A stretch of DNA of 32,000 nt from SAR202 cluster bacterium (GCA_009392095.1 VFHF01000183.1:1-32000); one strand, 5' to 3'; positions 6,783-23,846 are shown, numbered from the stretch's first letter. Program-made: numbers and translations. The notes: generated from the sequence alone by a model not told the origin.

Positions 6783-6803
6783 TAGGTTTCTCTGACTCGC
6801 GGG

Positions 6804-8333
6804 TTATTCCGTGGCTTCGCCCTGGGCGTCTTGGGTGGCTTGGTCGCTTGGCATGGTCCGCATTTGGGGGAATAGCAACACGTCCCGGATGGACGGTTGC
6901 CCGGCCAGGAGCATGACTAGCCGGTCGATACCGATGCCCAGGCCGCCGGTGGGGGGCATGCCGTACTCCATAGCGGTCAGGAAGTCGTCGTCCTGGCGGT
7001 CGACTTCTTCATTTTCGTAGAGACGCTGGATCTGCGCTTGGGCCTCGAACCGCTCCCGCTGAATCTTGGGGTCGTTCAACTCGCTGTAGGAATTGGCGAT
7101 CTCCATCCCAAAGGCAAAGGCCTCAAACCTCTCCACGTATCCGGGTGAGTCGGGCTTGGCCTTAGCCAGCGGGGACATCTCCTCCGGGTAGTCCAGAACG
7201 AACGTCGGCTGGATGAGGCGGGGTTCCACGAAAGTCGATAGTAGTTTGTCGATCAAGCGCCCCCGGCTTTCCAGCACCTTGGTGTCGATACCCACTTCGC
7301 CGGCTTTCTGTCGCAGGGCGTCGTCATTGTAGGACTCCAGGTCTACCCCGCTACGTTTCTCCAATTCTTCCCGTAGGCTTACCCGCTGCCACGGCGGCGC
7401 GAAATCGATCACATCCTCGCCGATGGCCACCTTGGTGGAGCCGTTCACTTCGATAGCGATCGTGGAGACCATCTGCTCAACCATTTCCATGATGTCGTTG
7501 TAGTCGGCGTAGGCTTCGTAGCTCTCCAGCAGTGTGAATTCCGGGTTGTGGTCTTGGTCGATGCCCTCATTTCGGAAGACCCGGCCGATCTCGTAGACCT
7601 TGTCGAACCCGCCGATGATCAGCCGCTTCAGGTACAGCTCGGTGGCGATCCGCAGGTATAGCTGCTGGTCCAAGGCGTTGTGGTGAGTGACAAATGGCTT
7701 GGCGTGGGCCCCGGCAGCCACGGGTACCAGGACGGGGGTGTCCACTTCCAAAAAGCCCCGGTCGTCCAAGAACCGGCGTATCCCACGGATCACTTTGCTG
7801 CGCAGGACGAAGACGGGCATGACCTCGTCTTGGTTGGCAATCAGGTCCAGGTACCTCTGCCGGTAGCGGGTCTCCATATCCCTTAGGCCGTGGTATTTCT
7901 CCGGCAAGGGGCGCATGCCTTTGGCCGTGACAGTCAGTTCTAAGGCATCGATGGTCACCTGTCCGGTGCGGGTGCGGATCAGGTTGCCGCGGACGCCCAA
8001 GTGATCGCCGATGTCCAGGTTTTTGAGCAGGTCGAACCCGTCTTCCAGATTGTTCTGCCTGAGAAGGGCTTGGATGGAGCCTGATGCGTCCTGCAGATCC
8101 AGGAAGGCGGCCTTGCCCATGGTCCGCATGGACGTGATTCGTCCAGCTAGGGAGACGTTTTGCAACCGCTCATCGGGCGGGTCGGTCTCCTCTAATTCCT
8201 CGAACAAGGCGGTGGCCGTCGCGGAATCAAAAGTGCGGTGAAACCGGGCCGGGTATGGGTCTAAACCGTTTGCGCGGATGCGTGCGAGCTTGGTGACCCG
8301 GTTCTCCAAAAGTGTGTCTTCTCGGTCTGCCAT
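6804..8333 (-). CDS. lysS: Lysine--tRNA ligase (class II)
   Basis: An OB-fold N-domain (GRI.S.R..GKAAFLDLQD.SG.IQ) precedes the class II core (RYRQRYLDLI, FLEV.TP, YLRIATELYLKRLIIGGFDKVYEIGR.FRNEG, GGLGIGIDRLVMLL). Its stop lies 21 nt before the serS start. Confidence 0.95.
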   Translation of the reverse strand: MADREDTLLENRVTKLARIRANGLDPYPARFHRTFDSATATALFEELEETDPPDERLQNVSLAGRITSMRTMGKAAFLDLQDASGSIQALLRQNNLEDGFDLLKNLDIGDHLGVRGNLIRTRTGQVTIDALELTVTAKGMRPLPEKYHGLRDMETRYRQRYLDLIANQDEVMPVFVLRSKVIRGIRRFLDDRGFLEVDTPVLVPVAAGAHAKPFVTHHNALDQQLYLRIATELYLKRLIIGGFDKVYEIGRVFRNEGIDQDHNPEFTLLESYEAYADYNDIMEMVEQMVSTIAIEVNGSTKVAIGEDVIDFAPPWQRVSLREELEKRSGVDLESYNDDALRQKAGEVGIDTKVLESRGRLIDKLLSTFVEPRLIQPTFVLDYPEEMSPLAKAKPDSPGYVERFEAFAFGMEIANSYSELNDPKIQRERFEAQAQIQRLYENEEVDRQDDDFLTAMEYGMPPTGGLGIGIDRLVMLLAGQPSIRDVLLFPQMRTMPSDQATQDAQGEATE

Positions 8334-8525
8334 TTGGTCTTAAGAGTCCCCGGCTTGCAAGGTCAAGATAATGGGTCGAAATAATCGGGTGGGAAAGTCA
8401 GAAAAAACAGCGAAAAGCGTCGTCTATTCTGACTAGCGATTGTAATGCTGGACCCATGCCTTGTAAAGGAACCGCCAGCCTGAATAGGCGTGGATATACG
8501 CCGGAATTCGGGAGGTGATTCTCAC

Positions 8526-9296
8526 CTAGACAGTGACCGGGTAGATGACCTGGATGACTTTGTTGTCGCGAAGGCCGTCGAAGTAGGGGTGAGGCCGCTC
8601 CGGGTTCTGCAGCCAGCGGCGCACGAAGAAGGCGACCAGGTTGGACAATTGGCTTCCCACAGAGTGTCCTGGGTCTACGAAGCAGATGTCGTCGATCAGA
8701 CCGGTGGCGTCTATCCCTTCATCCGAACGCAGGAACTCGGACATGAACTTTGACTGAATGGAAGCCCCATTCTGAGCAATCACCAAAGCATGGTTAGTGA
8801 TAGGCATTGCGCCTTCCATGATCTGGTCGCCGGATAGATTCGCCATATTAAGTTCATCTAGGAACATGCTCATGGCGAAGAAAAACTTGTTGATCACAGG
8901 TCCAGTCGGCGTCTCCCAGACTGTGATGTACGGGTCGTTCCCGGCGGCTTTGGCGTTGGCGAATTCTTGCTTATTGATGTAAGAGGTGATAACCGGTGTC
9001 TGGCGCCGGACCATCACGTTCAGGCAGTCTTGAATAAGTTCGTTTCTCTTCAGGGTGGGCCAGGAAGCAAAGTAGCCTAGGCCTTGAAAGACATCTACCG
9101 GCCTGATCACGCTTGGGGAGCCTTCTCCACCCAAAGGCACGCCGAAATGACGGCGACACAGTGCGTCAAACTCTCCGTTCATCGAGATCGATTGGCTCTC
9201 GTGCACGAAGAGCCCGGTGTAGACCTGGTGGGGCTGGGAAGAGTCTGTGATAGTGTTGCCGGAAATCCCCGATTCTCCGACGTAGGTTAGGAACAT
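8526..9296 (-). CDS. Hypothetical protein with DUF3800-like motifs
   Basis: The ORF track opens at TTG 9314. I prefer ATG 9296 (MFLTYVGESG...) because GGAG lies 7 nt upstream. N-terminal YVGESG and C-terminal CFVDPGHSVGSQLSNLVAFFVRR resemble, from memory, the two hallmark DUF3800 motifs. The gene is visibly more AT-rich than its neighbours. Confidence 0.6.
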   Translation of the reverse strand: MFLTYVGESGISGNTITDSSQPHQVYTGLFVHESQSISMNGEFDALCRRHFGVPLGGEGSPSVIRPVDVFQGLGYFASWPTLKRNELIQDCLNVMVRRQTPVITSYINKQEFANAKAAGNDPYITVWETPTGPVINKFFFAMSMFLDELNMANLSGDQIMEGAMPITNHALVIAQNGASIQSKFMSEFLRSDEGIDATGLIDDICFVDPGHSVGSQLSNLVAFFVRRWLQNPERPHPYFDGLRDNKVIQVIYPVTV

Positions 9297-9315
9297 TTCC
9301 GGTCTCCAAAACAAC

Positions 9316-9356
9316 CGCCGGAGGCCGCGTGCCCATCTGAGTTTGCTCCTCCGGCG
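9316..9356 (-). terminator. Hairpin downstream of rplY (possible weak terminator or attenuator)
   Basis: 9-bp inverted repeat cgccggagg (9316-9324) and cctccggcg (9348-9356) with a 23-nt loop. On the minus strand it is followed by GTTGTTTTGG. The large loop makes it atypical. Confidence 0.35.
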
Positions 9357-9422
9357 TTCTTAAACTTTATTAGATCCCGCTGCTTGAACCTGGCGGGACA
9401 GACATAGATTCGGCTTCACCGA

Positions 9423-10076
9423 TTACTCTTCAGAGGCCTCGGCCGCGCCGCCTTCGTCACCCTCTTCACCTTCCTCGCCTTCCACACCCTCGACGACAAC
9501 TTCTTCTGCAACACGGGGTAGCTCGATCCGGACAACCAGCTCTTCGAGATCGCTAAGCAATGTGGCGGTTTCGGGAATCGGCAGATCGGATACACGGAGC
9601 ACCGAGTCCGGGTCTTCCATGACCGAGATGTCTAATTCGATCTGGTTTGGCATCTCCAGGGGGAGGGCCTGAACATCAACGGTGCGCAGTTGGTGCATCA
9701 CTGTCCCGCTCACGGTGCGGGCGCCGGCGGATTCGCCGACCAAGACGATCGGGACTTGGGCTGTTACCGGACGGCTTACGTCGGCGGCCAGGAGGTCTAC
9801 ATGCAAAAGGTCGTCGCGCCTGGGGTCCCACTGGATCTCCCGCGCAAAGGCCAGGTGATTGCCGGACTCGCCGTTGATGGTGATATGAATCGGCGTGGCG
9901 CCGCCGGCGGTGGCCAAAACCTGAATCAGCCGGGAGGCCTGGCATTGTAGGGCCCTTGGTTCCATACCTGGACCGTATAGGTGTATGGGTACGATGCCGG
10001 CCCGGCGTAGACGCCCGACCTTTTTGCCCATTAATTCTCGGGGGTCTAGTTCTATCTGTACTGCGTTGGTGGTCAT
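9423..10076 (-). CDS. rplY: 50S ribosomal protein L25 / general stress protein Ctc
   Basis: MTTNAVQIEL.PRE..GKK..RLRRAGIVP..LYG is the L25/Ctc N-terminus. It is followed by the Ctc C-domain and an acidic tail (EGVEGEEGEEGDEGG). The ORF track start at 10199 adds 41 non-conserved residues, so ATG 10076 is preferred. Confidence 0.9.
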   Translation of the reverse strand: MTTNAVQIELDPRELMGKKVGRLRRAGIVPIHLYGPGMEPRALQCQASRLIQVLATAGGATPIHITINGESGNHLAFAREIQWDPRRDDLLHVDLLAADVSRPVTAQVPIVLVGESAGARTVSGTVMHQLRTVDVQALPLEMPNQIELDISVMEDPDSVLRVSDLPIPETATLLSDLEELVVRIELPRVAEEVVVEGVEGEEGEEGDEGGAAEASEE

Positions 10077-10308
10077 GGGACGATGGTCTCCGGTGGTTTT
10101 GTGCTTCCGGGTCCCAAAATTGTCTACATCGGGAACGGTGGTTACGGAATCTGGACAAGCACGGGTTAATCGCAACCGTCTAATAATAGCATCAGCCACC
10201 CCGAAAGTGAATGGCAGGAGCAGGCCCCGCGCTCAATAGCCGGTTGTCCGGTCCGAAATCTTGACACTCGGTTTATCATGGGTTTGGACTTTGACCGGAG
10301 GAGAAACG

Positions 10309-14627: not shown

Positions 14628-15428
14628 CTATTTACCCGCCTGCTGGATGACCACTTTGTCGCAGTGTTGTTCGGCGGCCTTTAACACCTCGGGATGGGAT
14701 TCGGACGGGCTGCCGATGGTGCAGACCACACTCCATAGCCCGGCGCGGGCGTCCCGGCCCAAGCGGGAGAGAATCTCGTTGGTGTTCTTGCCGTTCAGAA
14801 TCAGCTCCGTCCCGCTTGCGGAATTCCGGACAGCGTCCAAGGCTTCTGGTGTGCCTGCCACGTAGTCGGCGTGTTTTAGAAGGCCCACGGCTAAAACGCC
14901 TAATTCGGAAGGGCGGTCCGGATCTAGAGCGATGAAAGTTACGGCCCGTTCCCTTGCGTTGAAGGCTTCCACGTACTTCCGCGTCTCCACGATCTGGCGG
15001 GAGTGGGCGGTCCAATGGCCGGACGACCGTTCCACCAACTCCAGCAGGGTCAGTCCGGGGAAAGAGTTTTCAGGGTTGGGCGCCGTCACCTGCTGGGACA
15101 TCTTTGCTTCGGTCAAGCTCTCCACCAACTTGCGGAACCGCCGGTAGTTGTCGTCCAGATGGACAATGTCTGCTTTGAGCTTCGTTTCGCGGGTATTGAA
15201 CGGAGGCAACATGTCCTTGTCACCGGCCACGATTTGTTCCAGCGCCGCGACGAACTTTTCGGTATCCAGGTGGTTAAGCACCTCCCAGACGGACCACCGA
15301 GAGCCCAAGAAGGCGTCCACGGGATCGAGTCCTTCCAGTGAGGTATGGAGGTTCTTATACCCCTCGTCCAGCCGCTCCAGCACGCGTGCGCGCCGTTGGA
15401 GTGAGGTCAGTTCTTGTTCTGGTGCCAT
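14628..15428 (-). CDS. Hypothetical protein: DinB/ClbS-like four-helix-bundle N-domain plus an uncharacterised C-domain
   Basis: The N-terminal ~150 aa carry DinB-superfamily hallmarks (WSVWEVLNHL..., GHWTAHSRQI). The C-terminal ~110 aa are discussed in the findings. GGAGAA lies 4 nt upstream of the ATG. Confidence 0.55.
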   Translation of the reverse strand: MAPEQELTSLQRRARVLERLDEGYKNLHTSLEGLDPVDAFLGSRWSVWEVLNHLDTEKFVAALEQIVAGDKDMLPPFNTRETKLKADIVHLDDNYRRFRKLVESLTEAKMSQQVTAPNPENSFPGLTLLELVERSSGHWTAHSRQIVETRKYVEAFNARERAVTFIALDPDRPSELGVLAVGLLKHADYVAGTPEALDAVRNSASGTELILNGKNTNEILSRLGRDARAGLWSVVCTIGSPSESHPEVLKAAEQHCDKVVIQQAGK

Positions 15429-15504
15429 CGTTTCTCCAGATGTGTCTTAGTTTGTGAGGCCATTCTAAGGCAGCGGCAAACTCCAGGGAAGCAGGAAACC
15501 ACAG

Positions 15505-15513
15505 TGGTACAAT
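15505..15513 (+). promoter_or_regulatory. Extended -10 element (TGgTACAAT) upstream of the VLRF1-like gene
   Basis: TG at 15505-15506 and TACAAT at 15508-15513, only 12 nt before ATG 15526. No Shine-Dalgarno is visible in between. Confidence 0.35.
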
Positions 15514-15525
15514 TTCCTGAACATA

Positions 15526-16281
15526 ATGACCGAAGCTAGAAACAGGACCGCCACGCCTGCCGCTGGACTCAACGGAGACTGGCTCACCAAAGACCGGCTG
15601 CATAATCTTCTGAACGTGCGAAAGCCCGCCGAGGGAGAAGTTGCGTCGTCGGTCTATCTGAAGCCTGGCGACACTGCCGAGTCCTCCGAATGGCGGGAGC
15701 GGCTGGCACGATTGGGTAAAACGCCAGAGGATAGTGGGAGCGGGCTGGTTGGTTTTCGCGCTGGGGGGCGGGCTTTAGTCATCGCGCCGCCTTTCCCCAT
15801 AACTGTAAGCAACCGGTTCGATACCTGGGATGAGGGACCGCTCTGGACGTTGCTGGACGCGGAACGCACCTTTGGGGTGGTGCTGGTGCGGCTGGGGCGC
15901 TACTCGGTGGCCGTCTACCGAGGCGGAGACCTGGTTACATCCAAGACCGACTCCCGCTACGTGAAAGGCAAGCACCATGCCGGCGGCACGTCCCAACTGC
16001 GCTACACCCGCGTCCGGGAAGGCCAGATGCGGCGGCTGTACGTCAAGGTCTGCGAGACCATCCGCGCCCAATTCGAGCCGGTGGCCAGCGAGCTAGACCA
16101 CGTGGTTTTAGGCGGAGAGAAGTTCACGCTGAACGGCTTTTTGAAGGTCTGCCCCCGTCTGGACGAGTATAAGAACATCACCCTAAAACGAAGATTGAAT
16201 ATCCGGGACCCAAAACGTGACACTCTGGACGACCTGGGAGAGACCCTCTACGAAAGCCGCGTTTGGGTCCTCGATTGGTGA
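15526..16281 (+). CDS. Vms1/ANKZF1-family (acVLRF1-type, eRF1-like) putative peptidyl-tRNA hydrolase
   Basis: 251 aa. The loop RYVKGKHHAGGTSQLRYTRVREGQ (GGTSQ encoded at 15982-15996) matches, from memory, the catalytic Gln loop of Vms1-like release factors and the actinobacterial/chloroflexal acVLRF1 clade (RYV.G...AGG.SQ.RF.RRRE.Q). Confidence 0.7.
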   Translation: MTEARNRTATPAAGLNGDWLTKDRLHNLLNVRKPAEGEVASSVYLKPGDTAESSEWRERLARLGKTPEDSGSGLVGFRAGGRALVIAPPFPITVSNRFDTWDEGPLWTLLDAERTFGVVLVRLGRYSVAVYRGGDLVTSKTDSRYVKGKHHAGGTSQLRYTRVREGQMRRLYVKVCETIRAQFEPVASELDHVVLGGEKFTLNGFLKVCPRLDEYKNITLKRRLNIRDPKRDTLDDLGETLYESRVWVLDW

Positions 16282-16284
16282 ATA

Positions 16285-18780
16285 TTGAGCGACACTGAAC
16301 TGGAAACCAATAACCCAACCAGGTCTGGTGGCCATTATTTCCGGACTCGAGCTGACGTCCGGCCGTTCAACAACAACTTGGGCGGTTTCGACTTTGCCGG
16401 CCCTCTTCTGGAGTTCGACAAGGTCCAGGAACTGCTGGCAAGTCACACCAAAACCGTGGTCGGCGGCGAACGGGCCAGAGCGCTAACACCCACCCGCGAC
16501 CTGTTGGAGATCGCCACCCGCCAGCAGGAGACCTCGGAGGCCCGGCTGTATCTGGAACAGGACGGCAACCTGGAATTTGGGCCGGACGAGGATTTCCGGG
16601 AGCTGTTCCAGCGCGCTCTCTTGGGCGGACTACTGCGCGGCGAGGAACTGTTCCTGGTCAGAGAATTGCTCCGGGCCGCCCGCTACGACCGCACGGAACT
16701 GGGTCGCCACGAAGAGATACCGATGCTGTCTAGCATCTCGGAGATCATCCCAGAGTTGGGCGACTTGGAGCGGGCAATCTCGGGCGCAATTAGTCCATCC
16801 GGTGAGGTGCTGGACAACGCCAGTCCAGTGTTGCACAACCTCCGCCAGGAGGCGCGCCAGGCCCAGAACCGGCTCAACGAGATCATGGAACGCAACCTGC
16901 GTCGCCTGCAGCGGGCCGAGGTTGTTCAAGAGCCGCTGATCACCCAACGCAACGGCCGGATGGTGTTGCTGATCAAGGCCGAGATGCGGTACCGCGTGCC
17001 CGGCATCGTCCATGACGTGTCCGACAGCGGGGCGACTGTTTTTGTCGAACCCATGCCGGCCATTGAGGTCGGTAACCGCTGGCGGGAGGCCCGGCTGGCC
17101 GAGGGCAGGGAGGTCGAGCGGGTGCTGCGCCAGTTGTCGGGGATGGTCGGAATGTCCGGCGAAGACCTGTTGTTGACCTTGGACCTGATGGCCAGACTTG
17201 ACCTGGACATTGCCAAGGCCCGTTATTCCGCAGCCATAGGTGCGGTTGCTCCGTGGGTAGCCGACCAGGAAGTGGCAGAAAGGAGCTTGAAACTGGTCCG
17301 AGCCCGCCATCCATTGCTCACCGGCGCCGTGGTCCCAGTCAGTATCGACCTGGACCGGGAGCAGCAGGTGATGCTGATCACCGGCCCCAACGCTGGCGGC
17401 AAGACGGTAACACTGAAGACCGTGGGATTGCTGGCCATGATGGCCCAAGCCGGACTGCACGTGCCTGCCGAAGAGGCGCATCTTCCTCGGTTCGACGGCG
17501 TTTACGCGGACATCGGCGACCAACAGAGCATCCAACAATCGCTATCCACCTTCAGCTCCCACATCACAAACGTTAAGGGCATCATGTCCCGGGCCACGGT
17601 CCATTCTCTGGTATTGATCGACGAACTGGGCACCAGCACCGACCCGGAGGAGGGCTCCGCACTGGCCAGCGCTGTGCTGCGGTATTTCCAGAAGATCGGC
17701 TCCTTCGTGGTTGGCACCACCCACCACAGGGGCGTGGCCAGGTTCGTACAAGACGAGCCGGGCATGGTCAACGCCAGTGTCGACCTTGACCCCAGCACTC
17801 TGGAGCCAACCTACCACGTGACCTTGGGCCTTCCTGGACGTAGTTACGCGCTAACCATCGCCGCGCGCCTGGGCGTACCCCAAGAAGTCATCGACGACGC
17901 TCGCAGCGGTATCTCCCCTGTGGAACAGGCCACCGAGGGCTTGTTGCAAGAGCTCCAACAGGAGCGCCGGGTGGTGGAGGAACTGCGGGAAGAGGCCGAG
18001 ACTGCTAGGTCGGAAGCCGTGCGTATGCAACGGGAATTGGACGCTCAATTAGCCGACGTGGAATTGGCCAAGGCCAATCTGGTGGAGGAATCGCGGCAGG
18101 AATTGCAGGGCCGTATCAGCGGGATATTGGACCGGCTGGCCAGGGCCGAACGTTCGTTGGAAGCCTCCGAGCTTCGGCAAGATGCCGAATCGCGGGCCAA
18201 CGCCGATGCCAGGGCCAACTTGGCTTCCCGGCAGGAGATCGAGGCCCACCGGACCGAAGTCAGGGATATGCAACGGCAATTGGAATCGGCGTCCTGGTCG
18301 CCCATCGAAGTCGAACGAGTCCCTTGGCAATCGATCTTGAAAGAGGGAGACCGGGTCTACGTCCGCGGGATCGCTCAACCGGTGGAGGTCATCTCCCCAC
18401 CCGATAACCAGGACAGGGTAGGGGTGTTGTTAGGGACTATGCGGGCCAAGATTCCGGTGTACCAGTTGGTCCGGCAGGCCGAAGGACACCCGACGGCGGC
18501 GTCACGGGGCGTGTACCTGGACCGTGCGCCCAAAAAGAATTCGAATACCGAATTGGACTTACGGGGCCTGCGGGTGGACGAGGCCATTAGCCGGGTTGAC
18601 GAAGCCCTGAATGACGCCGCATTGGACGGCGCCGGTTCTATCCGGTTGATCCATGGCAAAGGCACCGGCGCCCTGCGGCGGGCCATCCGGGAGTACTTGG
18701 GAGGCCATCCGCTGGTGATGTCGGCCGAGGATGGAGAAGGCCCTGGCGGCGGCGGCGTTACGGTGGCGGAACTAGAGTAG
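16285..18780 (+). CDS. mutS2: Endonuclease MutS2 (MutS paralogue with C-terminal Smr domain; RqcU-type)
   Basis: N-terminal LLEFDKV motif, Walker A GPNAGGKT (17383-17406), Walker B LVLIDELGTSTDP, a long coiled-coil, a KOW-like segment, and the Smr domain ELDLRGLRVDEA...LIHGKGTGALR (18550-18777). The start is uncertain. TTG 16285 lies 3 nt after the upstream stop, while TTG 16378 gives the canonical N-terminal length. No in-frame ATG or GTG is available. Confidence 0.93.
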   Translation: MSDTELETNNPTRSGGHYFRTRADVRPFNNNLGGFDFAGPLLEFDKVQELLASHTKTVVGGERARALTPTRDLLEIATRQQETSEARLYLEQDGNLEFGPDEDFRELFQRALLGGLLRGEELFLVRELLRAARYDRTELGRHEEIPMLSSISEIIPELGDLERAISGAISPSGEVLDNASPVLHNLRQEARQAQNRLNEIMERNLRRLQRAEVVQEPLITQRNGRMVLLIKAEMRYRVPGIVHDVSDSGATVFVEPMPAIEVGNRWREARLAEGREVERVLRQLSGMVGMSGEDLLLTLDLMARLDLDIAKARYSAAIGAVAPWVADQEVAERSLKLVRARHPLLTGAVVPVSIDLDREQQVMLITGPNAGGKTVTLKTVGLLAMMAQAGLHVPAEEAHLPRFDGVYADIGDQQSIQQSLSTFSSHITNVKGIMSRATVHSLVLIDELGTSTDPEEGSALASAVLRYFQKIGSFVVGTTHHRGVARFVQDEPGMVNASVDLDPSTLEPTYHVTLGLPGRSYALTIAARLGVPQEVIDDARSGISPVEQATEGLLQELQQERRVVEELREEAETARSEAVRMQRELDAQLADVELAKANLVEESRQELQGRISGILDRLARAERSLEASELRQDAESRANADARANLASRQEIEAHRTEVRDMQRQLESASWSPIEVERVPWQSILKEGDRVYVRGIAQPVEVISPPDNQDRVGVLLGTMRAKIPVYQLVRQAEGHPTAASRGVYLDRAPKKNSNTELDLRGLRVDEAISRVDEALNDAALDGAGSIRLIHGKGTGALRRAIREYLGGHPLVMSAEDGEGPGGGGVTVAELE

Positions 18781-18782
18781 CC

Positions 18783-19586
18783 CTATTTCCCCTGGAATCG
18801 TGCCTGGCGGCGTTCTGTGAAAGCCCTAACGCCCTCTTGGAAATCCTCTGTGAGGCATATTTCCTCAAAGACAGCGGTCTCGGCGTCCAGTTGGGTCTCG
18901 ATATCGTTTTGCCAGGAACTCTCGAATAGCGCTTTTACCCGCCCATAGGCTAATGTCGGTCCTTGGGCCAGGCGGACGGCGGTTTCCATGGCGTGTTTGT
19001 GCAATTGGTCATCTGCGACCACCTGACTGACCAACCCCATGTCCAGGGCTGCTTGGGCGCTGGTTGGCTGGCTGGCCAGGTAGAACTCCATGGCCCGGCT
19101 AGCGCCGACCAGGCGAGGAAGCAGATAGGTTGATCCACCGTCGGCCGGCGCGCCGATGTTGGCATAGGCCATCAGGAACCGGGCGTTGTTGGCCGCCACC
19201 CGGACGTCGCAACCCAAGGTCAGACTGAAGCCCGCACCCGCCGCCACGCCGTTTATGCCGGCGACCACCGGTTTTCCCAATTGGCGTAGCCCCATAACGA
19301 CATCGTGGTGCAAGTTGTTGGCCAGATTGCGGATATAGGTTTGAATCTTTTCTGGGCCGCCGCTCTCCAGGTTTTCCACGAGGAATTTAAGATCAGCGCC
19401 GGAGCAAAACCCGCCGCCGGCTCCTGTGAGGAGCACGGAACGCACATCGGCTCTCTTGCAGGCCTCGATCGCTCCCCCCATCTCGGCTACCATCTCCAGA
19501 GTCAGTGCGTTCCTAGACTCGGGGCGGTTCATTGTGATAATGCCAACGCCGTCCATCTTTTCGAAACTGATGTTTTCAAAGGCCAT
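18783..19586 (-). CDS. Enoyl-CoA hydratase/isomerase (crotonase) family protein
   Basis: Crotonase fold motifs: ITMNRPESRNAL, VLLTGAGGGFCSGADL, KPVVAGINGVAAGAGFSLTLGCD. Its start overlaps the stop of the upstream pmbA-like gene by 1 nt (TAATG). Confidence 0.9.
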   Translation of the reverse strand: MAFENISFEKMDGVGIITMNRPESRNALTLEMVAEMGGAIEACKRADVRSVLLTGAGGGFCSGADLKFLVENLESGGPEKIQTYIRNLANNLHHDVVMGLRQLGKPVVAGINGVAAGAGFSLTLGCDVRVAANNARFLMAYANIGAPADGGSTYLLPRLVGASRAMEFYLASQPTSAQAALDMGLVSQVVADDQLHKHAMETAVRLAQGPTLAYGRVKALFESSWQNDIETQLDAETAVFEEICLTEDFQEGVRAFTERRQARFQGK

Positions 19587-21160
19587 TAGACGCTCTCCAT
19601 GTACTCGGAAATCTCTTCAAGACCGAAGCCGGATACCGCAATCTCCGGCGCCCAGGTAACCTGGTCCGACGACCAGCGCACAGTGGCCCGGCGCTGGGCC
19701 GTTATGCCAAGGGTGCTGTTGATCAGCCGGAGTACATTGTCGTTCATGCGTACCGTGTTGGGCTTGAGCGGGGCGGCGAACCGGCCGTCCTTGATCAGAT
19801 AGGAATCGCCGATGATTGTCCCGCTGAAGTCGCCGCTGGTGGTGCCGTTAACCGGGTAGGTGTACCAGATACGGCCGATGTACACGCCGTTTCCCACTAG
19901 CCGCAGCAATTCTTCTTTGCTGTGGCCCGGGGTCCCCTCGATGACCAGGTTGCTGGATACCGCACCCGGCATGGCGCCAAAGTTACGGCCGCCGCCGTTG
20001 CCGGGCCGGAACCCGTTGCGCGGGGCAATTTTCGCTAGCGCGTCAGACGGATTGACTCCCAGCTTCTCCCGGCCAGTGGGGTCGTTTAACATGCGTTGGT
20101 AATTGTAGTAGTCGGCCAACAGGCCCGAGAGTTCGCCTCCGCGGATCAAATCAGTCCGCCCGGTGGGTAGGCCCTCGTCGGTGATTGACTTGGAACTGGG
20201 CAGTCCGGGCGCCGCCCCGTCGTCGTACAGGTTGAAGTCCGCTGACGCCACCGCCTGGCCCAGCTTGCCCATGAAGGGCGAAGCGCCAGCGTAGAACATG
20301 TCCAAGGAGAGTCCCGGCATCAGCACCCATTCCAGAATCTCAGCCACGGCTTGGGGTCCTAGGATTACGTTGTATTCGCCGGTGGGGATCCGTTGGCCGT
20401 CCATGGACTCGATAGCGTTACGCGCGGCCTCGGCAGCAGCTTCCCCATTAAATTCGGCCAACTTACTGGCCACGGACCACCCGCTACCCTTGCTGGCCTG
20501 GCTCTCGATCATGGCCGTGGCGAATGACATAATGAGGGTGTTTTGTTCGGTTTGAACCTTGGGGATGTGGGTTGACGCAATGGACATACGGTCCTGGAGC
20601 ATGACTACGTCCCCGCCCAAGATTAGTCCCAACTCAGACATCTTTTCCGCCGAACCGGCTATCCCCATCAGGTCTTCCGACGACTGAAACGCGTCCAGCG
20701 CCCGGTCCATCATGCGCCAACCGGCGTCAACTAGACCCTTGCCGCCGATACGCATCAACGCCGGGTCGTAATTGGCCAGAGGCTCGTCGTTTGTTGTGGC
20801 CGCCCGGTGGGGCGATTCCAGTTTGGGCAGCGAAACGAACTCGGTGTCCGAGACCGCGCCGTAGCGGGCCTTTTCCAAAGCCCGTGCGGCCCCATCCACC
20901 GATAGGTCGGTGGGCTCACTGCCGAACCCGGTCTTGATGCCGCCTGGTGTTCGGAATGTCGCCCGGATGCCCATACCGTAACCCTCAGTGGACTTGGGCT
21001 CCTCCACACCGTTGCTGGGAATGTGGGAGGTGTAATTGAGGCGGACCGTCAGGTTTGCCCCAGCCGAAGCAAAAACCTCGGCCTCTGCCACATCGGGCTG
21101 GGAGGAAGCGAAGGCCAGGGCGTTCTTAACGGCGCGGCGCAGTTCAGCTACAGATAACAA
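19586..21160 (-). CDS. pmbA: TldD/PmbA family protein, PmbA/TldE-like (no HExxxH)
   Basis: 524 aa with TldD/PmbA-family architecture, including the C-terminal GxxxxGGxxxxxG-rich region (NGVYIGRIWYT..., GDFSG...G.LIKDG). The position aligned to the TldD metal site reads AEILEWVLMPGLSLD, with no His pair, as expected for the non-catalytic partner. Confidence 0.75.
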   Translation of the reverse strand: MLSVAELRRAVKNALAFASSQPDVAEAEVFASAGANLTVRLNYTSHIPSNGVEEPKSTEGYGMGIRATFRTPGGIKTGFGSEPTDLSVDGAARALEKARYGAVSDTEFVSLPKLESPHRAATTNDEPLANYDPALMRIGGKGLVDAGWRMMDRALDAFQSSEDLMGIAGSAEKMSELGLILGGDVVMLQDRMSIASTHIPKVQTEQNTLIMSFATAMIESQASKGSGWSVASKLAEFNGEAAAEAARNAIESMDGQRIPTGEYNVILGPQAVAEILEWVLMPGLSLDMFYAGASPFMGKLGQAVASADFNLYDDGAAPGLPSSKSITDEGLPTGRTDLIRGGELSGLLADYYNYQRMLNDPTGREKLGVNPSDALAKIAPRNGFRPGNGGGRNFGAMPGAVSSNLVIEGTPGHSKEELLRLVGNGVYIGRIWYTYPVNGTTSGDFSGTIIGDSYLIKDGRFAAPLKPNTVRMNDNVLRLINSTLGITAQRRATVRWSSDQVTWAPEIAVSGFGLEEISEYMESV

Positions 21161-21190
21161 TCTATCTATTCTCTTCCGGCTGGTAGGGCA

Positions 21191-22243
21191 TCATTTCTCT
21201 TCGGCATACGTTTCAACCAACTCGGTTTCGGGCAGGGCAACGGGGTCTTCCGATTCGATGGAATCGACCTCGGTGGCGTCGGGGGTGTCCCGCTGTTTGC
21301 GGATTTCCTGGATGCGTTGCAATGGACGATCTAACGTCCGGCTTCGGGTGCCTTTAAGGGACTCGAAGCTGGTTTGTGCTGATTCGATACGCCGCCCCAC
21401 GGTCTCCATCTGCGCTGCGAAAAGCTTCCATTGCCGGTCGAAGATAGCCAGCTCGGACAGTATCTCGTTGGAAGCCTGCTCGATGGCAAAGTTATCCAGA
21501 GCGTGTCGGATGACGCTAAGGATCGCGAACAGGCTGATGGGTGAGCAGAGCACCACCCGGTTGCGGAGCGCTTCTTCCACCACCGTGGCCCCGTGCTGTT
21601 GGATGTAGTGAAACATCTGCTCGTTGGGAATGAAAACTAGGACGTAGTCCAGGGTATTGTCTTCTGAGTTGATGTAATTCCGGCCGACGACTTCTTTGGC
21701 CCGGTCTCGAACGTCACGCAGAAAGGCGAGGCTATGTTGTTGGGCCTCTTCTTCAGTACCTGCTTCCACCAACCGAACGTAGTTCGTCAATGGGAATTTA
21801 GCGTCCATATTTAGTTTCTTGTTTTCTGGCATGAATATGGTGAAATCGGGGCGCGAACTCCCATCGGTGACGGTGGCCTGCTTCACATAATTCACGTGTT
21901 CAACAAAGCCGATTATCCGGAACACGTCTTCGGCCATCCGCTCACCCCATTGTCCCCGAGCTTGGGTGTTGGCCAGGATGTCCCTGAGGGCCGACGAGCT
22001 GCTATTCAAGCTGGTGAGCATGGTTTCGAGACGTTCCGACTGTTTGGCCCGGTCGACATTCAGGTTCTGGATGGCCTCGTTGACCCGGTCCATGCCCTGG
22101 CGGATCTCACCCACCTGATGGCCAAAGGCGCTATCTTGGCTTTGAGAGTCGCCTTGGGACTTGAGCAGGCGGAACATCAAGATTATCGCCAACCCCGTGG
22201 ATGAAAGGGCGACTACACCGATGATTATCAAGGCCACTGTCAT
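21191..22243 (-). CDS. rmuC: DNA recombination protein RmuC
   Basis: An N-terminal TM helix (VALIIIGVVALSSTGLAIILMF) and a coiled-coil precede the RmuC nuclease-like C-domain (RPDFTIFMP..K.L.MDAKFPL..Y, DYVLVFIPNEQMFHYI, VVLCSPISLFAIL). Confidence 0.85.
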   Translation of the reverse strand: MTVALIIIGVVALSSTGLAIILMFRLLKSQGDSQSQDSAFGHQVGEIRQGMDRVNEAIQNLNVDRAKQSERLETMLTSLNSSSSALRDILANTQARGQWGERMAEDVFRIIGFVEHVNYVKQATVTDGSSRPDFTIFMPENKKLNMDAKFPLTNYVRLVEAGTEEEAQQHSLAFLRDVRDRAKEVVGRNYINSEDNTLDYVLVFIPNEQMFHYIQQHGATVVEEALRNRVVLCSPISLFAILSVIRHALDNFAIEQASNEILSELAIFDRQWKLFAAQMETVGRRIESAQTSFESLKGTRSRTLDRPLQRIQEIRKQRDTPDATEVDSIESEDPVALPETELVETYAEEK

Positions 22244-22265
22244 AGCTTACACGGCTCCAGCCCAG

Positions 22266-23846
22266 CTAGCCCGGCCCCGTTAGACGGGCGATGCCTCTCA
22301 TGGTCGGTCCTCCGTTGCTCATTCGCTTGGCCTGCATAGGCTGGCCCTTGCCACAGTTGGGGATGGGGTTCACCCTCAGGTCGTTGCCCACGGCGTCGAT
22401 GGACATGAAATAGTCGCGGCTGTCCGAGGTGATGCCGCCGTCCCGGTACAGCCGGCCTAACTGGCCGTTCTTGATCTCGTAGACCTTCACCGCCGTGATG
22501 CGGAAATTCTCTCGGGATTCGGCGATGGACGGCGTCCGGTGCCCCGAGATGTAGTAACCGTCTTCGACGTCGGCGATGATGCTCTGGGGGTCCTGTTGTC
22601 CCGGACCGAAGACGGTGTTGGTCATGCGGATCAGGGGTACCAATTGTGCCTCAGTGGAGCGGGCCGACCCGTTGGGCTCAACCCCCATGATTGCCGCCGT
22701 CTGGCGGTTGTTCAGGAACTCCTCCAATACGCCGTCTCTCAGGATGTAGGCACGTCGGGCCGGTGTTCCCTCGTGGTCGTAGCTGAAAGAGCCGTAACCT
22801 TCCATGGTTGGGTCCGAATAGGCTGTGACCATAGGCGATGCGATCTGGTTGCCCAGTTGGTTGTCCTGCATGTCCTTTAGGAACCAGGAACGCCCGGCGT
22901 AACCCGTCTCGTACTTCAGTGCCCGATCCAACTCCGAGGGATGGCCGACCACTTCGTGGACCAGCAGGGTGTTGAAGTGAGGGTTGGTGACGACCGTTAC
23001 CTCTTTGTCGGGCGGTTTTAGGGGCGGTGCAGCGGCTACTTCCACTGCGTCCGCGCCAAGCGTCCGGCAGAAGTCCATGAAGTTAGGCAAGATGATAGGA
23101 CCGTTGGAATAGCCCTCGGTCAATATCTCCCAGCCGCGTTGGTGGCCGGTGAAGTCGTAGAGTTCATAGTTGCCGTGCTCGCTGGAGCAGATGGCGATGG
23201 CGAACCCTTCGGTCTGGGCGAAGCTCTGGTCTATGTTCGCGCCGTCCGAGCTGAGGAATAGTTCCCGGAGCAGGAACGTCGAGGCCGAGCAGGCGGAATA
23301 GACGATGTTGCTGCCCTGGCTCTGCATCTGCTTGCAGCCGTCAACGGCCATGGCGATGGTGTCAGTCAAGGGAACTTGCCGGGGGTCGACCCTGAAGTTG
23401 GCCGGGACCGTAGCCTGGTGGACAACCACCGGGGCGAGGTCACTTGGCGTGAGGTTGCTGCCTAGAGTCTCGTAGCGGCCCCGCATCTGCGATTTTTGCC
23501 TGGCGCTGGCATGGGCGCGGCCGTGGGCCTGGCGGATGCCGTCCCAGACCACATCTTCCAAACGGCTTAGATCAGTTGTGCCCAAAACCTTGCCGTAATA
23601 ACCGGAGGAGGAAGTACGTCCGCCAGCAATGACGCGGACGCCAAAGTCGAAGGCGTAGTCCTCGGAGCTACCTTTCTCCGAGCCGTTCTCCGCCACCGCG
23701 CCCTTCTCTTCCCTGACCTCGATGCGCAGGTCGCAGTATCGGAGGCTCGGCAACGTCTTGGCCTTCTCGGCAACTAGCGATTGCAGATTAGCCTGGAAGC
23801 GGTCCAGGGACTCTACGGTTACGCAGGATGGGGATGGAGATAGCAT
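22266..23846 (-). CDS. tldD: Metalloprotease TldD-like
   Basis: TldD/PmbA-family protein carrying the zinc motif HEVVGH (22941-22958, minus) followed by PSELD. The C-terminal Gly-rich region is YISG..., GGITSD..., CGKGQP. 526 aa. Confidence 0.8.
   Translation of the reverse strand: MLSPSPSCVTVESLDRFQANLQSLVAEKAKTLPSLRYCDLRIEVREEKGAVAENGSEKGSSEDYAFDFGVRVIAGGRTSSSGYYGKVLGTTDLSRLEDVVWDGIRQAHGRAHASARQKSQMRGRYETLGSNLTPSDLAPVVVHQATVPANFRVDPRQVPLTDTIAMAVDGCKQMQSQGSNIVYSACSASTFLLRELFLSSDGANIDQSFAQTEGFAIAICSSEHGNYELYDFTGHQRGWEILTEGYSNGPIILPNFMDFCRTLGADAVEVAAAPPLKPPDKEVTVVTNPHFNTLLVHEVVGHPSELDRALKYETGYAGRSWFLKDMQDNQLGNQIASPMVTAYSDPTMEGYGSFSYDHEGTPARRAYILRDGVLEEFLNNRQTAAIMGVEPNGSARSTEAQLVPLIRMTNTVFGPGQQDPQSIIADVEDGYYISGHRTPSIAESRENFRITAVKVYEIKNGQLGRLYRDGGITSDSRDYFMSIDAVGNDLRVNPIPNCGKGQPMQAKRMSNGGPTMRGIARLTGPG

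What the first reader, a model, noticed from the sequence alone, without database searches (positions are those of the whole stretch)
15526..18780. Vms1/ANKZF1-like release factor (acVLRF1-type) directly upstream of MutS2: candidate bacterial ribosome-quality-control operon
Seen in sequence: a 251-aa ORF carries the loop RYVKGKHHAGGTSQLRYTRVREGQ (GGTSQ at 15982-15996). Its stop (TGA 16279-16281) lies 3 nt before the MutS2 reading frame opens, or at most 96 nt before the alternative TTG start. MutS2 has an intact Walker A (17383-17406) and a C-terminal Smr domain (18550-18777).

Established knowledge: Vms1/ANKZF1 are eRF1-like peptidyl-tRNA hydrolases that release nascent chains from obstructed 60S subunits in eukaryotic RQC. 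A bacterial VLRF1 clade restricted to Actinobacteria and Chloroflexi (acVLRF1) was defined computationally. B. subtilis MutS2 (RqcU) senses collided ribosomes and splits them. Smr nucleases (Cue2, NONU-1, SmrB) cut mRNA at collisions.

Inference: one transcription unit would encode both the collision sensor/splitter and a dedicated release factor for the resulting peptidyl-tRNA-50S complex. That would mirror the eukaryotic Smr plus Vms1 logic and could replace or complement RqcH/RqcP-Pth. I know of no experimental characterisation of acVLRF1 and no description of a VLRF1-MutS2 linkage, though my knowledge may be incomplete.
Basis: partly seen in the sequence, partly recalled or inferred. Interest (0 to 1): 0.8.

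Follow-up and report, generated by a model that had tools for sequence, protein, structure and literature searches.

The report
Vms1-like release factor paired with MutS2
A marine SAR202 (Chloroflexota) bacterium carries a two-gene unit that joins a Vms1/eRF1-like peptide-release factor to MutS2, the sensor and splitter of collided ribosomes. The pairing is kept in two deeply diverged lineages in opposite gene orders, which makes it a strong candidate for a dedicated bacterial ribosome-quality-control release step that has not been described.

Summary

- **Gene identities.** ORF 15526-16281 is an acVLRF1-family protein (Pfam PF18859, 98.5 bits; eRF1-like fold; GGTSQ loop). ORF 16285-18780 is a full-length MutS2/RqcU orthologue (TIGR01069, 753.7 bits). 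It aligns end to end with the B. subtilis MutS2 solved on collided disomes.
- **Operon structure.** The MutS2 TTG start lies 3 nt after the VLRF1 stop. No terminator lies between the genes, and opposite-strand genes flank the pair.
- **Conservation of the link.**
  - In 78 of 79 informative Dehalococcoidia/SAR202 species genomes, MutS2 directly follows VLRF1.
  - In a second VLRF1 subfamily about 30% identical to this one, 62 of 66 informative metagenomic loci have the reverse order, MutS2 then VLRF1. There, 30 of 31 long loci keep the pair, while the flanking genes of the reference locus recur in only 2-6.
  - Other acVLRF1 subfamilies are not MutS2-linked.
- **Smr type.** All linked MutS2 proteins in which the motif was found carry a DLR-type Smr, the type of the B. 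subtilis splitter, in which no mRNA cleavage was detected.
- **Literature.** I found no paper describing this link. The 2019 paper that defined the family called prokaryotic VLRF-1 proteins standalone.

Function is inferred: MutS2 splits the stalled ribosome and VLRF1 frees the nascent chain from the 50S-bound peptidyl-tRNA. I could not test co-occurrence with RqcH, transcription or biochemistry.

The parts
15429..15525 (.). 97-nt divergent intergenic region between the DinB-like gene on the minus strand (14628-15428) and the VLRF1 gene. It presumably holds the promoter of the pair.
   Evidence: ORF map. No sigma-70 consensus site was found, so the promoter is inferred from gene arrangement only.
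15526..16281 (+). acVLRF1-family gene (251 aa), a Vms1/eRF1-like candidate for peptidyl-tRNA hydrolysis or tRNA cleavage.
   Evidence: Pfam PF18859, 98.5 bits. NCBIfam NF041024, 120.4 bits against a cut-off of 125. PDB profile hit to aRF1 3agk, E 1.5e-10. AF2 model pLDDT 82.8, with Foldseek hits to aRF1/eRF1 at about 1e-8 and to Vms1 6r84_R at 9.7e-4.
15955..16026 (+). Loop equivalent to the GGQ loop, RYVKGKHHAGGTSQLRYTRVREGQ. GGTSQ lies at 15982-15996. T155 aligns with the Gln of GGQ in aRF1, and Q157 lies two residues later.
   Evidence: Coordinates. Alignment to aRF1. H150, H151, G153, G154, T155, S156 and Q157 are invariant in 19 subfamily members. GGTSQ occurs in 75 of 80 related loci.
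16274..16287 (+). Gene junction TGGTGAATATTG. It contains the VLRF1 stop TGA (16279-16281), an SD-like GGTGA that overlaps the stop, and the MutS2 TTG start (16285-16287).
   Evidence: Sequence. Conserved in 19 related genomes. No terminator-like site between the genes. Gene callers use the same start. Translational coupling is an inference.
16285..18780 (+). MutS2/RqcU gene (831 aa) with a MutS domain V ATPase, coiled coil, KOW-like SH3 (MSSS) domain and C-terminal Smr.
   Evidence: TIGR01069, 753.7 bits. Pfam MutS_V, MSSS and Smr. End-to-end match to B. subtilis MutS2 in PDB 7QV3, E 1.7e-135.
17383..17406 (+). MutS2 Walker A motif GPNAGGKT.
   Evidence: Aligns to GPNTGGKT of B. subtilis MutS2.
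17614..17631 (+). MutS2 Walker B region LIDELG.
   Evidence: Aligns to LFDELG of B. subtilis MutS2, whose E416 is needed for splitting.
18343..18459 (+). KOW-like SH3 (MSSS) domain, residues 687-725.
   Evidence: Pfam PF20297, 27.1 bits against a cut-off of 26.8. In B. subtilis the equivalent KOW domain binds uS10.
18553..18774 (+). Smr domain with DLRG at 18556-18567 and HGKGTG at 18652-18669. This is the DLR type, not DLH.
   Evidence: Pfam PF01713, 69.9 bits. Motif coordinates. Same motifs as B. subtilis MutS2. DLR, never DLH, in 73 plus 46 linked MutS2 genes where the motif search found it.

Best explanation
The two genes form a bicistronic, probably translationally coupled operon that encodes a 'split and release' ribosome-rescue module.

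1. **Sensing and splitting.** MutS2, an orthologue of B. subtilis MutS2/RqcU, recognises collided ribosomes through its KOW-like and DLR-type Smr domains. Its ABC ATPase then splits the stalled ribosome. This leaves a 50S subunit that still carries peptidyl-tRNA.
2. **Release.** The acVLRF1 protein is an eRF1-central-domain protein. It lacks a stop-codon-reading domain and a GTPase-binding domain. It would enter the exposed A-site side of that 50S complex and place its GGTSQ loop at the peptidyl-transferase centre. There it frees the nascent chain, either by hydrolysing the ester bond as eRF1 does, or by cutting the tRNA 3' end as reported for Vms1/ANKZF1.

What is shown: the gene identities, the operon-like structure and the conserved linkage. 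What is inferred: the order of action, the 50S substrate and the chemistry.
For: **Identities**
- acVLRF1 by Pfam and by fold.
- MutS2 by TIGR01069 and an end-to-end match to the disome-bound B. subtilis protein, with intact Walker A, Walker B, DLR and HGKG motifs.

**Operon structure**
- Same strand, 3-nt spacing and a conserved junction with an SD-like GGTGA.
- No terminator-like site between the genes.
- Both neighbours lie on the opposite strand.

**Linkage**
- 78 of 79 informative species genomes have VLRF1 then MutS2. So do two further relatives at 40-43% identity.
- A subfamily about 30% identical has MutS2 then VLRF1 in 62 of 66 informative loci. The pair is kept in 30 of 31 long loci, while the neighbours of the reference locus are kept in only 2-6.
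- The two linked groups are not each other's nearest relatives by identity.

**Context from the literature**
[quoted passage not shown] DLR-type Smr domains bind but did not show cleavage.
- In 1306 Chloroflexota genomes, RqcP and YlmH are essentially absent and RqcH is found in about 26%. Most of the phylum therefore lacks the canonical tailing machinery downstream of MutS2.
Against: - There is no expression, interaction or activity data.
- RqcH, RqcP and Pth status of the genomes that carry the pair could not be tested.
- Several acVLRF1 subfamilies, some in SAR202 itself, are not next to MutS2. VLRF1 function therefore does not strictly need a neighbouring mutS2.
- A few members of the linked subfamilies lack a nearby MutS2 (L049, L105, L107, L121, L158).
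- The loop Gln is missing at both candidate positions in 33 of 137 family representatives, and 4 of 80 loci of the reversed-order subfamily read GGSSA. Classical Gln-dependent hydrolysis may not be the general chemistry.
- In the SAR202 lineage wider synteny is also partly kept (ECH in 70 of 80 loci, DinB-like in 56 of 80). That census alone would be weak evidence.
- All sampled genomes are Chloroflexota.
Confidence: 0.6

Rival explanations
1. acVLRF1 acts on intact stalled 70S ribosomes as a codon-independent release factor, as ArfB does. It would act before MutS2 or in parallel with it. MutS2 would then only recycle or split the vacated ribosomes, so the two proteins share a pathway but not the 50S-peptidyl-tRNA substrate.
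For: - The protein lacks a stop-codon-recognition domain, as single-component rescue factors do.
- Burroughs and Aravind suggested that prokaryotic VLRF-1 proteins may be single-component release factors.
- Several subfamilies exist without a neighbouring mutS2.
Against: - Its nearest characterised relative by family, Vms1, works on the 60S subunit after splitting.
- The protein has no C-terminal tail or domain that would probe an empty mRNA channel.
- The tight, order-independent linkage specifically to the splitter fits a handover of the splitter's product more simply.
Confidence: 0.2
2. acVLRF1 in this operon is a non-catalytic, Pelota/Dom34- or Balon-like A-site factor. It would help MutS2 recognise or split stalled ribosomes rather than release the peptide.
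For: - The predicted fold also matches Pelota/Dom34 and Balon.
- 33 of 137 family representatives have no Gln at either loop position.
- The eRF1 superfamily is known to contain inactive splitting cofactors (Discussion).
Against: - GG-x-S is essentially invariant (136 and 134 of 137), and flanking H150, R159, R162 and R164 are nearly so.
- Gln157 is kept in 79 of 80 and 76 of 80 MutS2-linked loci.
- The protein lacks the eRF1 domain 3 that Pelota and Balon use to recruit a GTPase.
Confidence: 0.12
3. The adjacency has no functional meaning for translation. MutS2 would act here on DNA (recombination suppression or repair), and the VLRF1 gene would be a conserved but unrelated neighbour.
For: - MutS2 was long regarded as a DNA endonuclease, and it sits next to polX in other bacteria (PMC9226535).
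- In the SAR202 lineage much of the neighbourhood is syntenic anyway.
Against: - The pair survives loss of all other synteny and an inversion of gene order.
- MutS2 lacks the MutS mismatch-recognition domains.
- It keeps the KOW and Smr elements that bind collided ribosomes.
- An eRF1-fold protein has no known DNA role.
Confidence: 0.05

Closest known systems
Vms1/ANKZF1 (eukaryotic VLRF-1), the release factor of eukaryotic RQC
   Same: - It belongs to the same VLRF-1 clade of the eRF1 superfamily according to the family definition.
- The model matches Vms1 on the 60S subunit (6r84_R: E 9.7e-4, TMq 0.44, 189 aligned columns).
- It has a G-x-x-Q-type loop in place of GGQ.
- The proposed substrate is the large subunit carrying peptidyl-tRNA after ribosome splitting.
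   Different: - It has no Rei1 zinc finger, ankyrin repeats, VTC domain or VIM/Cdc48-binding motif.
- It is only 251 aa long.
- Burroughs and Aravind place the origin of Vms1 nearer the Bacteroidetes bVLRF-1 family, not acVLRF-1.
- It is encoded in an operon with the splitter.
- Its chemistry, hydrolysis or CCA cleavage, is unknown.
B. subtilis RQC: MutS2/RqcU, RqcH, RqcP/YlmH, Pth
   Same: MutS2 here is a full-length orthologue with Walker A, Walker B, KOW-like and DLR-type Smr elements. The expected product of its action is a 50S-nascent-chain complex.
   Different: - In B. subtilis, release is done by the general enzyme Pth after Ala-tailing by RqcH and RqcP, and no dedicated release factor is known.
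- Here an eRF1-like factor is encoded next to MutS2.
- RqcP and YlmH are essentially absent from Chloroflexota, and RqcH is present in about 26%.
- Whether tailing occurs in these organisms is unknown.
aRF1/eRF1 class-I release factors
   Same: These are the best sequence and fold matches for the central catalytic domain (3agk, E 1.5e-10; 4af1, E 7.3e-9). The KH-x-x-GG-x-S-x-R-[FY]-x-R loop context is shared.
   Different: - It has no recognisable eRF1 stop-codon-recognition or C-terminal domain; the only eRF1 Pfam match is domain 2 (eRF1_2) at residues 116-207.
- The Gln of GGQ is replaced by Thr, and a Gln lies two residues later.
- Bacteria terminate translation with RF1 and RF2, so this is an accessory factor.
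ArfB (YaeJ) and other single-component bacterial rescue release factors
   Same: It is a codon-independent, stand-alone catalytic release domain used for rescue.
   Different: - The fold is unrelated: ArfB has the bacterial RF GGQ domain, whereas this protein has the eRF1 RNase-H-like domain.
- ArfB senses an empty mRNA channel on the 70S ribosome with a C-terminal helix, which is absent here.
E. coli SmrB / yeast Cue2 / C. elegans NONU-1 (Smr nucleases at collisions)
   Same: They have an Smr domain that recognises the interface between collided ribosomes.
   Different: Those proteins carry the catalytic DxH motif and cut mRNA. The MutS2 proteins linked to VLRF1 carry DLR wherever the motif search found it (73 plus 46 loci). 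That is the type of B. subtilis MutS2, for which no mRNA cleavage was detected and which splits ribosomes instead.

Membership tests
acVLRF1 (Pfam PF18859; actinobacterial/chloroflexi VLRF-1 family of Burroughs and Aravind 2019) | Significant match to the family HMM that beats sister eRF1-like models | tested here: met
   PF18859 scores 98.5 bits against a cut-off of 27.1. baeRF_family10 scores 59.5 and eRF1_2 scores 35.4.
acVLRF1 (NCBIfam NF041024, 'acVLRF1 family peptidyl-tRNA hydrolase') | Score at or above NCBI's curated cut-off | tested here: inconclusive
   120.4 bits against a cut-off of 125, E 7.8e-35. Homologues 81-84% identical are nevertheless named 'Vms1/Ankzf1 family peptidyl-tRNA hydrolase' by NCBI.
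acVLRF1 | eRF1 central (RNase-H-like) domain fold | tested here: met
   AF2 model with pLDDT 82.8 and pTM 0.79. Foldseek hits to aRF1/eRF1 at E 7e-9 to 1e-6, and to the isolated aRF1 central domain 8hku at rmsd 2.9 over 128 columns.
acVLRF1 | Loss of the stop-codon-binding domain, with a short distinctive N-terminal extension instead | tested here: met
   The only eRF1 Pfam match is domain 2, at residues 116-207. Residues 1-100 match no Pfam family. They fold into a small alpha/beta unit in the model.
acVLRF1 / VLRF-1 clade | Conserved Gly-rich loop with a Gln at the position equivalent to the GGQ loop | tested here: met
   HHAGGTSQ is invariant in 19 subfamily members. GGTSQ occurs in 75 of 80 loci. 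Caveat: family-wide, 33 of 137 representatives lack Gln at both positions.
acVLRF1 | Peptidyl-tRNA hydrolase or tRNA-cleaving activity on ribosomal complexes | not testable with these tools
   I found no experimental work on acVLRF1.
Vms1/ANKZF1 (eukaryotic eVLRF-1) | Accessory domains: Rei1-type zinc finger, ankyrin repeats, VTC domain, VIM/Cdc48-binding motif | tested here: not met
   None was detected by Pfam in the 251-aa protein. It resembles Vms1 in the VLRF1 core only, so it is not a member of the eukaryotic family.
MutS2 / RqcU | Equivalog HMM above the curated cut-off, with full-length architecture (no MutS I/II domains; domain V ATPase, KOW-like SH3, Smr) | tested here: met
   TIGR01069 scores 753.7 against 400 and covers residues 41-830. 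Pfam finds MutS_V, MSSS (27.1 against 26.8) and Smr, and no MutS_I or MutS_II. PDB 7QV3 MutS2 matches at E 1.7e-135.
MutS2 / RqcU | Intact Walker A and Walker B motifs, which are needed for disome splitting in B. subtilis | tested here: met
   GPNAGGKT at 17383-17406 and LIDELG at 17614-17631. Both align to the B. subtilis motifs.
MutS2 / RqcU | Binding and splitting of collided ribosomes | not testable with these tools
   Inferred from orthology only.
Smr nucleases (SmrB/Cue2/NONU-1 type) | Catalytic DxH motif | tested here: not met
   The motif here is DLR, at 18556-18564. It is DLR in 73 plus 46 linked MutS2 genes where the motif search found it, and never DLH. Park et al. detected no mRNA cleavage by DLR-type B. 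subtilis MutS2.
Operon (single transcription unit) | Same strand, short spacing, no intervening terminator, conserved junction | tested here: met
   3-nt spacing. No terminator-like site in the junction. Flanking genes lie on the opposite strand.
Operon (single transcription unit) | One mRNA spans both genes | not testable with these tools
   No transcript data were available.
Canonical bacterial RQC (RqcH-dependent Ala-tailing) | Presence of rqcH with rqcP or ylmH in the same genome | not tested
   None is present in the 32-kb window. Whole genomes could not be scanned. At phylum level, Chloroflexota have RqcH in about 26% of genomes and RqcP/YlmH in about 0%.

The most novel reading that the evidence does not exclude
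Many Dehalococcoidia, including the abundant marine SAR202 group, may run a minimal RQC pathway made of only two proteins encoded together and independent of RqcH. MutS2 would split the collided ribosome, and a Vms1-like factor would directly discharge the nascent chain from the 50S subunit. This would be the first dedicated bacterial RQC termination factor. It would also be a prokaryotic counterpart of the eukaryotic Vms1 step, and it would show that 'splitter plus eRF1-like releaser' is an ancient, portable module.
Probability: 0.4. Interest if true: 0.85.

Novelty: new variant of a known kind. Interest (0 to 1): 0.74.

Why it matters
The release step of bacterial ribosome-associated quality control is its least understood part. 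A 2024 paper states that no dedicated RQC termination factor is known in bacteria and that the housekeeping enzyme Pth does the job in B. subtilis.

A conserved, order-independent gene pair now joins the collision sensor and splitter MutS2 to a homologue of the eukaryotic RQC release factor. This gives a concrete, testable candidate for such a factor.

It also revises the 2019 view that prokaryotic VLRF-1 proteins occur independently of other RQC components. It suggests how lineages that have MutS2 but mostly lack RqcH, RqcP and YlmH deal with 50S-peptidyl-tRNA. And it concerns a globally abundant ocean clade, since the exact protein is found on contigs in 31 blocks of the public collection, TARA Oceans assemblies among them.

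Tried and rejected
**Analyses that were inconclusive or blocked**
- The SAR202-type census alone is not sufficient. A control showed that neighbouring genes are also widely syntenic there (ECH in 70 of 80 loci, DinB-like in 56 of 80). I therefore sought more distant subfamilies.
- The sigma-70 promoter scan found nothing in 15300-19000, so the promoter is not located.
- Co-occurrence with RqcH, RqcP and Pth could not be tested. The per-genome table of PMC11317155 is cut off in storage before Chloroflexota, so only phylum totals were usable.
- I never sampled actinobacterial acVLRF1. Every named homologue in three listings is Chloroflexota, Dehalococcoidia or SAR202. The 'Actinobacteria' half of the family name is therefore untested here.

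**Negative results**
- Literature searches for acVLRF1, for VLRF1 with MutS2 and for RqcH with Chloroflexi returned nothing. The Park et al. 2023 MutS2 paper contains no neighbourhood or operon analysis.
- Rfam and tRNA scans of the window found nothing.

**Ideas rejected**
- ORF 8526-9314, next to the bL25 gene, is not Pth; it has no significant Pfam match.
- The exceptions L049 and L158 do not carry an alternative conserved partner; their neighbours are unrelated.

Full report
**1. The observation**

- ORF 15526..16281 (+) encodes 251 aa.
- GGTSQ lies at 15982-15996, the stop TGA at 16279-16281, and a TTG at 16285.
- The MutS2 Walker A motif is at 17383-17406, and Smr covers residues 757-830.

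The protein matches Pfam acVLRF1 (PF18859) at 98.5 bits (cut-off 27.1, E 4.4e-28). That is ahead of baeRF_family10 (59.5 bits) and eRF1_2 (35.4 bits). NCBIfam's acVLRF1 model gives 120.4 bits, just under its cut-off of 125. NCBI still names homologues 81-84% identical 'Vms1/Ankzf1 family peptidyl-tRNA hydrolase'.

The downstream ORF is MutS2 (TIGR01069, 753.7 bits against 400) with MutS_V, an MSSS/KOW-like SH3 domain and Smr.

**2. Anatomy of the pair**

The organism is a marine SAR202/Dehalococcoidia bacterium. This follows from the names and from identical contigs in TARA Oceans and GCA_009392405.1.

The two genes share a strand and are bracketed by minus-strand genes: a DinB-like gene upstream and an enoyl-CoA hydratase downstream.

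An alignment of the junction in 19 related genomes shows a conserved '...TGGTGAAnATTGAGCGAC...'. It is followed by a variable stretch in which most length differences are multiples of three. From this I conclude that:
- MutS2 starts at TTG 16285, 3 nt after the VLRF1 stop;
- an SD-like GGTGA overlaps the stop codon;
- MutS2 has a poorly conserved N-terminal tail of 30-40 aa.

Public gene calls agree on the start. No terminator-like site lies between the genes, and no sigma-70 consensus was found upstream. No RNA genes are present in the window.

**3. The VLRF1 protein**

A profile of 19 homologues hits archaeal aRF1 in the PDB (3agk, E 1.5e-10). In that alignment GGT lines up with GGQ, and Q157 falls two residues later.

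The AlphaFold model (pLDDT 82.8, pTM 0.79) has a flexible loop at residues 146-160. By Foldseek it matches:
- aRF1/eRF1, at E 7e-9 to 1e-6;
- Balon and Pelota/Dom34;
- yeast Vms1 on the 60S subunit (6r84_R: E 9.7e-4, TMq 0.44, 189 columns).

No stop-codon-recognition or C-terminal eRF1 domain is detectable. This agrees with the published family description.

HHAGGTSQ is invariant in the subfamily. Family-wide, GG-x-S and the flanking His and Arg residues are nearly invariant. The Gln is not: 33 of 137 cluster representatives have no Gln at position 155 or 157.

**4. MutS2**

The protein aligns end to end with the B. subtilis MutS2 solved on collided disomes (7QV3, E 1.7e-135). It keeps Walker A, Walker B, DLR and HGKGTG.

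Park et al. (PMC10897456) report that DLR-type MutS2 splits disomes by ATP hydrolysis with no detectable mRNA cleavage, whereas DxH-type Smr proteins are nucleases. In the linked MutS2 genes I examined, the motif search found DLR in 73 SAR202-type and 46 second-subfamily loci, and never DLH.

**5. Is the linkage real?**

*Genome scan.* It found 185 relatives and kept the best 80. All are Dehalococcoidia/Chloroflexota species representatives.
- 78 have MutS2 directly downstream on the same strand, with 7-289 nt between the tblastn matches.
- One locus is truncated, and one (L049) lacks MutS2.
- As a control, other neighbours are also often syntenic there (ECH 70 of 80, DinB-like 56 of 80). This census alone reflects one lineage.

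*Wider family.* A profile search of 1.84 billion cluster representatives found 149 family clusters at E below 1e-30 and 498 below 1e-10. These fall into subfamilies. Sampling them gave:
- cluster 31 (about 40-43% identical to the window protein): VLRF1 then MutS2 in L085 and L170;
- the 'GLVH' subfamily (about 30% identical): the reverse order, MutS2 then VLRF1, among unrelated flanking genes in L086.

*Metagenome census of the GLVH subfamily.*
- MutS2 lies immediately upstream in 62 of 80 loci.
- Only 4 of the 18 others have at least 300 nt of upstream sequence, so the figure is 62 of 66 informative loci.
- Among 31 loci of at least 7 kb, the pair is present in 30, while L086's flanking genes recur in only 2-6.

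The GLVH subfamily is about equally distant (roughly 30%) from all the others. The unlinked subfamilies are closer to the window's subfamily than GLVH is. Either the linkage is ancestral and was kept through a gene-order change, or it arose twice. Both readings imply selection for adjacency.

**6. Limits of the linkage**

Other acVLRF1 subfamilies, also from Chloroflexota/SAR202, are not MutS2-linked.
- Cluster 22 sits after an Abhydrolase_10 gene in four of five loci, but not in L084.
- Clusters 16 and 35 have unrelated neighbours.
- Two loci have an RsmI-like methyltransferase gene immediately upstream.
- One cluster-31 member is followed by a TPR protein.

No actinobacterial member was sampled.

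**7. Mechanism**

The best-supported reading is a two-step module, and its steps rest on different kinds of evidence.
- Shown: the gene identities, the operon-like structure, and linkage that is conserved independently of gene order.
- From established knowledge: MutS2 produces a 50S-nascent-chain complex. VLRF-1 proteins of eukaryotes release nascent chains from such large-subunit complexes.
- Inferred: acVLRF1 acts on the MutS2 product, by ester hydrolysis or by cleavage of the tRNA 3' end.

Published phylum-level data add plausibility. Of 1306 Chloroflexota genomes, about 26% have RqcH and essentially none have RqcP or YlmH. I could not test the genomes that carry the pair.

**8. Novelty**

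[quoted passage not shown] That was before MutS2 was linked to RQC.

Within the searchable library (CC-licensed PMC plus bioRxiv only):
- no paper holds VLRF1 together with MutS2;
- the one listed paper that holds Vms1 together with MutS2 states that no dedicated bacterial RQC termination factor is known;
- the MutS2 architecture paper has no neighbourhood analysis.

I therefore rate this a new variant of a known kind of system. It is of high interest to the ribosome-rescue field, and the function is still unproven.

Noticed in passing
L172:4160-5747 and L173:4158-5744: In two other acVLRF1 subfamilies (one from a SAR202 MAG), the VLRF1 gene directly follows an RsmI-like 16S rRNA methyltransferase gene (TP_methylase plus RsmI_C). 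The genes overlap by 14 nt in one locus and are 3 nt apart in the other. This is a second, different ribosome-related linkage. The two loci share further synteny, so it may be a single lineage.
   Followed up: partly
L177:3029-5780; L081-L083: In four of five cluster-22 loci (marine), the VLRF1 gene overlaps or abuts the end of a large Abhydrolase_10 gene, and a short-chain dehydrogenase gene lies opposite. MutS2 is not nearby, and the meaning is unknown. The fifth locus, L084, has an rpiB gene instead.
   Followed up: partly
L171:5001-6714: A cluster-31 VLRF1 whose relatives are MutS2-linked is instead followed, 25 nt downstream, by a 306-aa all-TPR protein. Eukaryotic Rqc1 is also a TPR protein said to be of bacterial origin. 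This may be coincidence.
   Followed up: no
family-wide (alignment of 137 representatives): 24% of acVLRF1 cluster representatives have no glutamine at either loop position, reading for example GGSSA or GGSSS. 27 keep a canonical GGQ. GG-x-S and the flanking His and Arg residues are near-invariant. The catalytic chemistry may differ between subfamilies, or may not depend on Gln.
   Followed up: partly
window 16285-16400: MutS2 has an extra N-terminal tail of about 30-40 aa compared with B. subtilis MutS2. Only the first 5-6 codons (MSDAEL) are conserved, and the rest varies, mostly by in-frame length changes, among close relatives.
   Followed up: partly
L002 and L005 (both from MAG JACZYV01, isolate B27T3L14): The same MAG carries two separate contigs, each with a VLRF1-MutS2 pair (87% and 85% identical to the window VLRF1). 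This is either a duplicated locus or a bin that mixes two strains.
   Followed up: no
window 5499-10199 (minus strand): A translation-related cluster: seryl-tRNA synthetase (5499-6782), a class II Lys/Asp/Asn-type tRNA synthetase (6804-8333), an ORF with no significant Pfam match (8526-9314; weak DUF3800 hit at E 0.014), and ribosomal protein bL25/Ctc (9423-10199). From memory, pth often follows the bL25 gene in other bacteria, but the ORF here is not Pth.
   Followed up: partly
window 19586-23846 (minus strand): Two TldD/PmbA-family metallopeptidase paralogues (19586-21160 and 22266-23846) flank an RmuC-family gene (21191-22243). This arrangement is kept in many related genomes.
   Followed up: no
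literature (PMC6514570 and PMC10897456): bVLRF-1 is described as mainly from Bacteroidetes. The KOW-Smr clade with an active DxH motif is described as restricted to Bacteroidetes. The shared phyletic pattern suggests that a VLRF1-Smr partnership may also exist there. I had no look-ups left to test adjacency.
   Followed up: no
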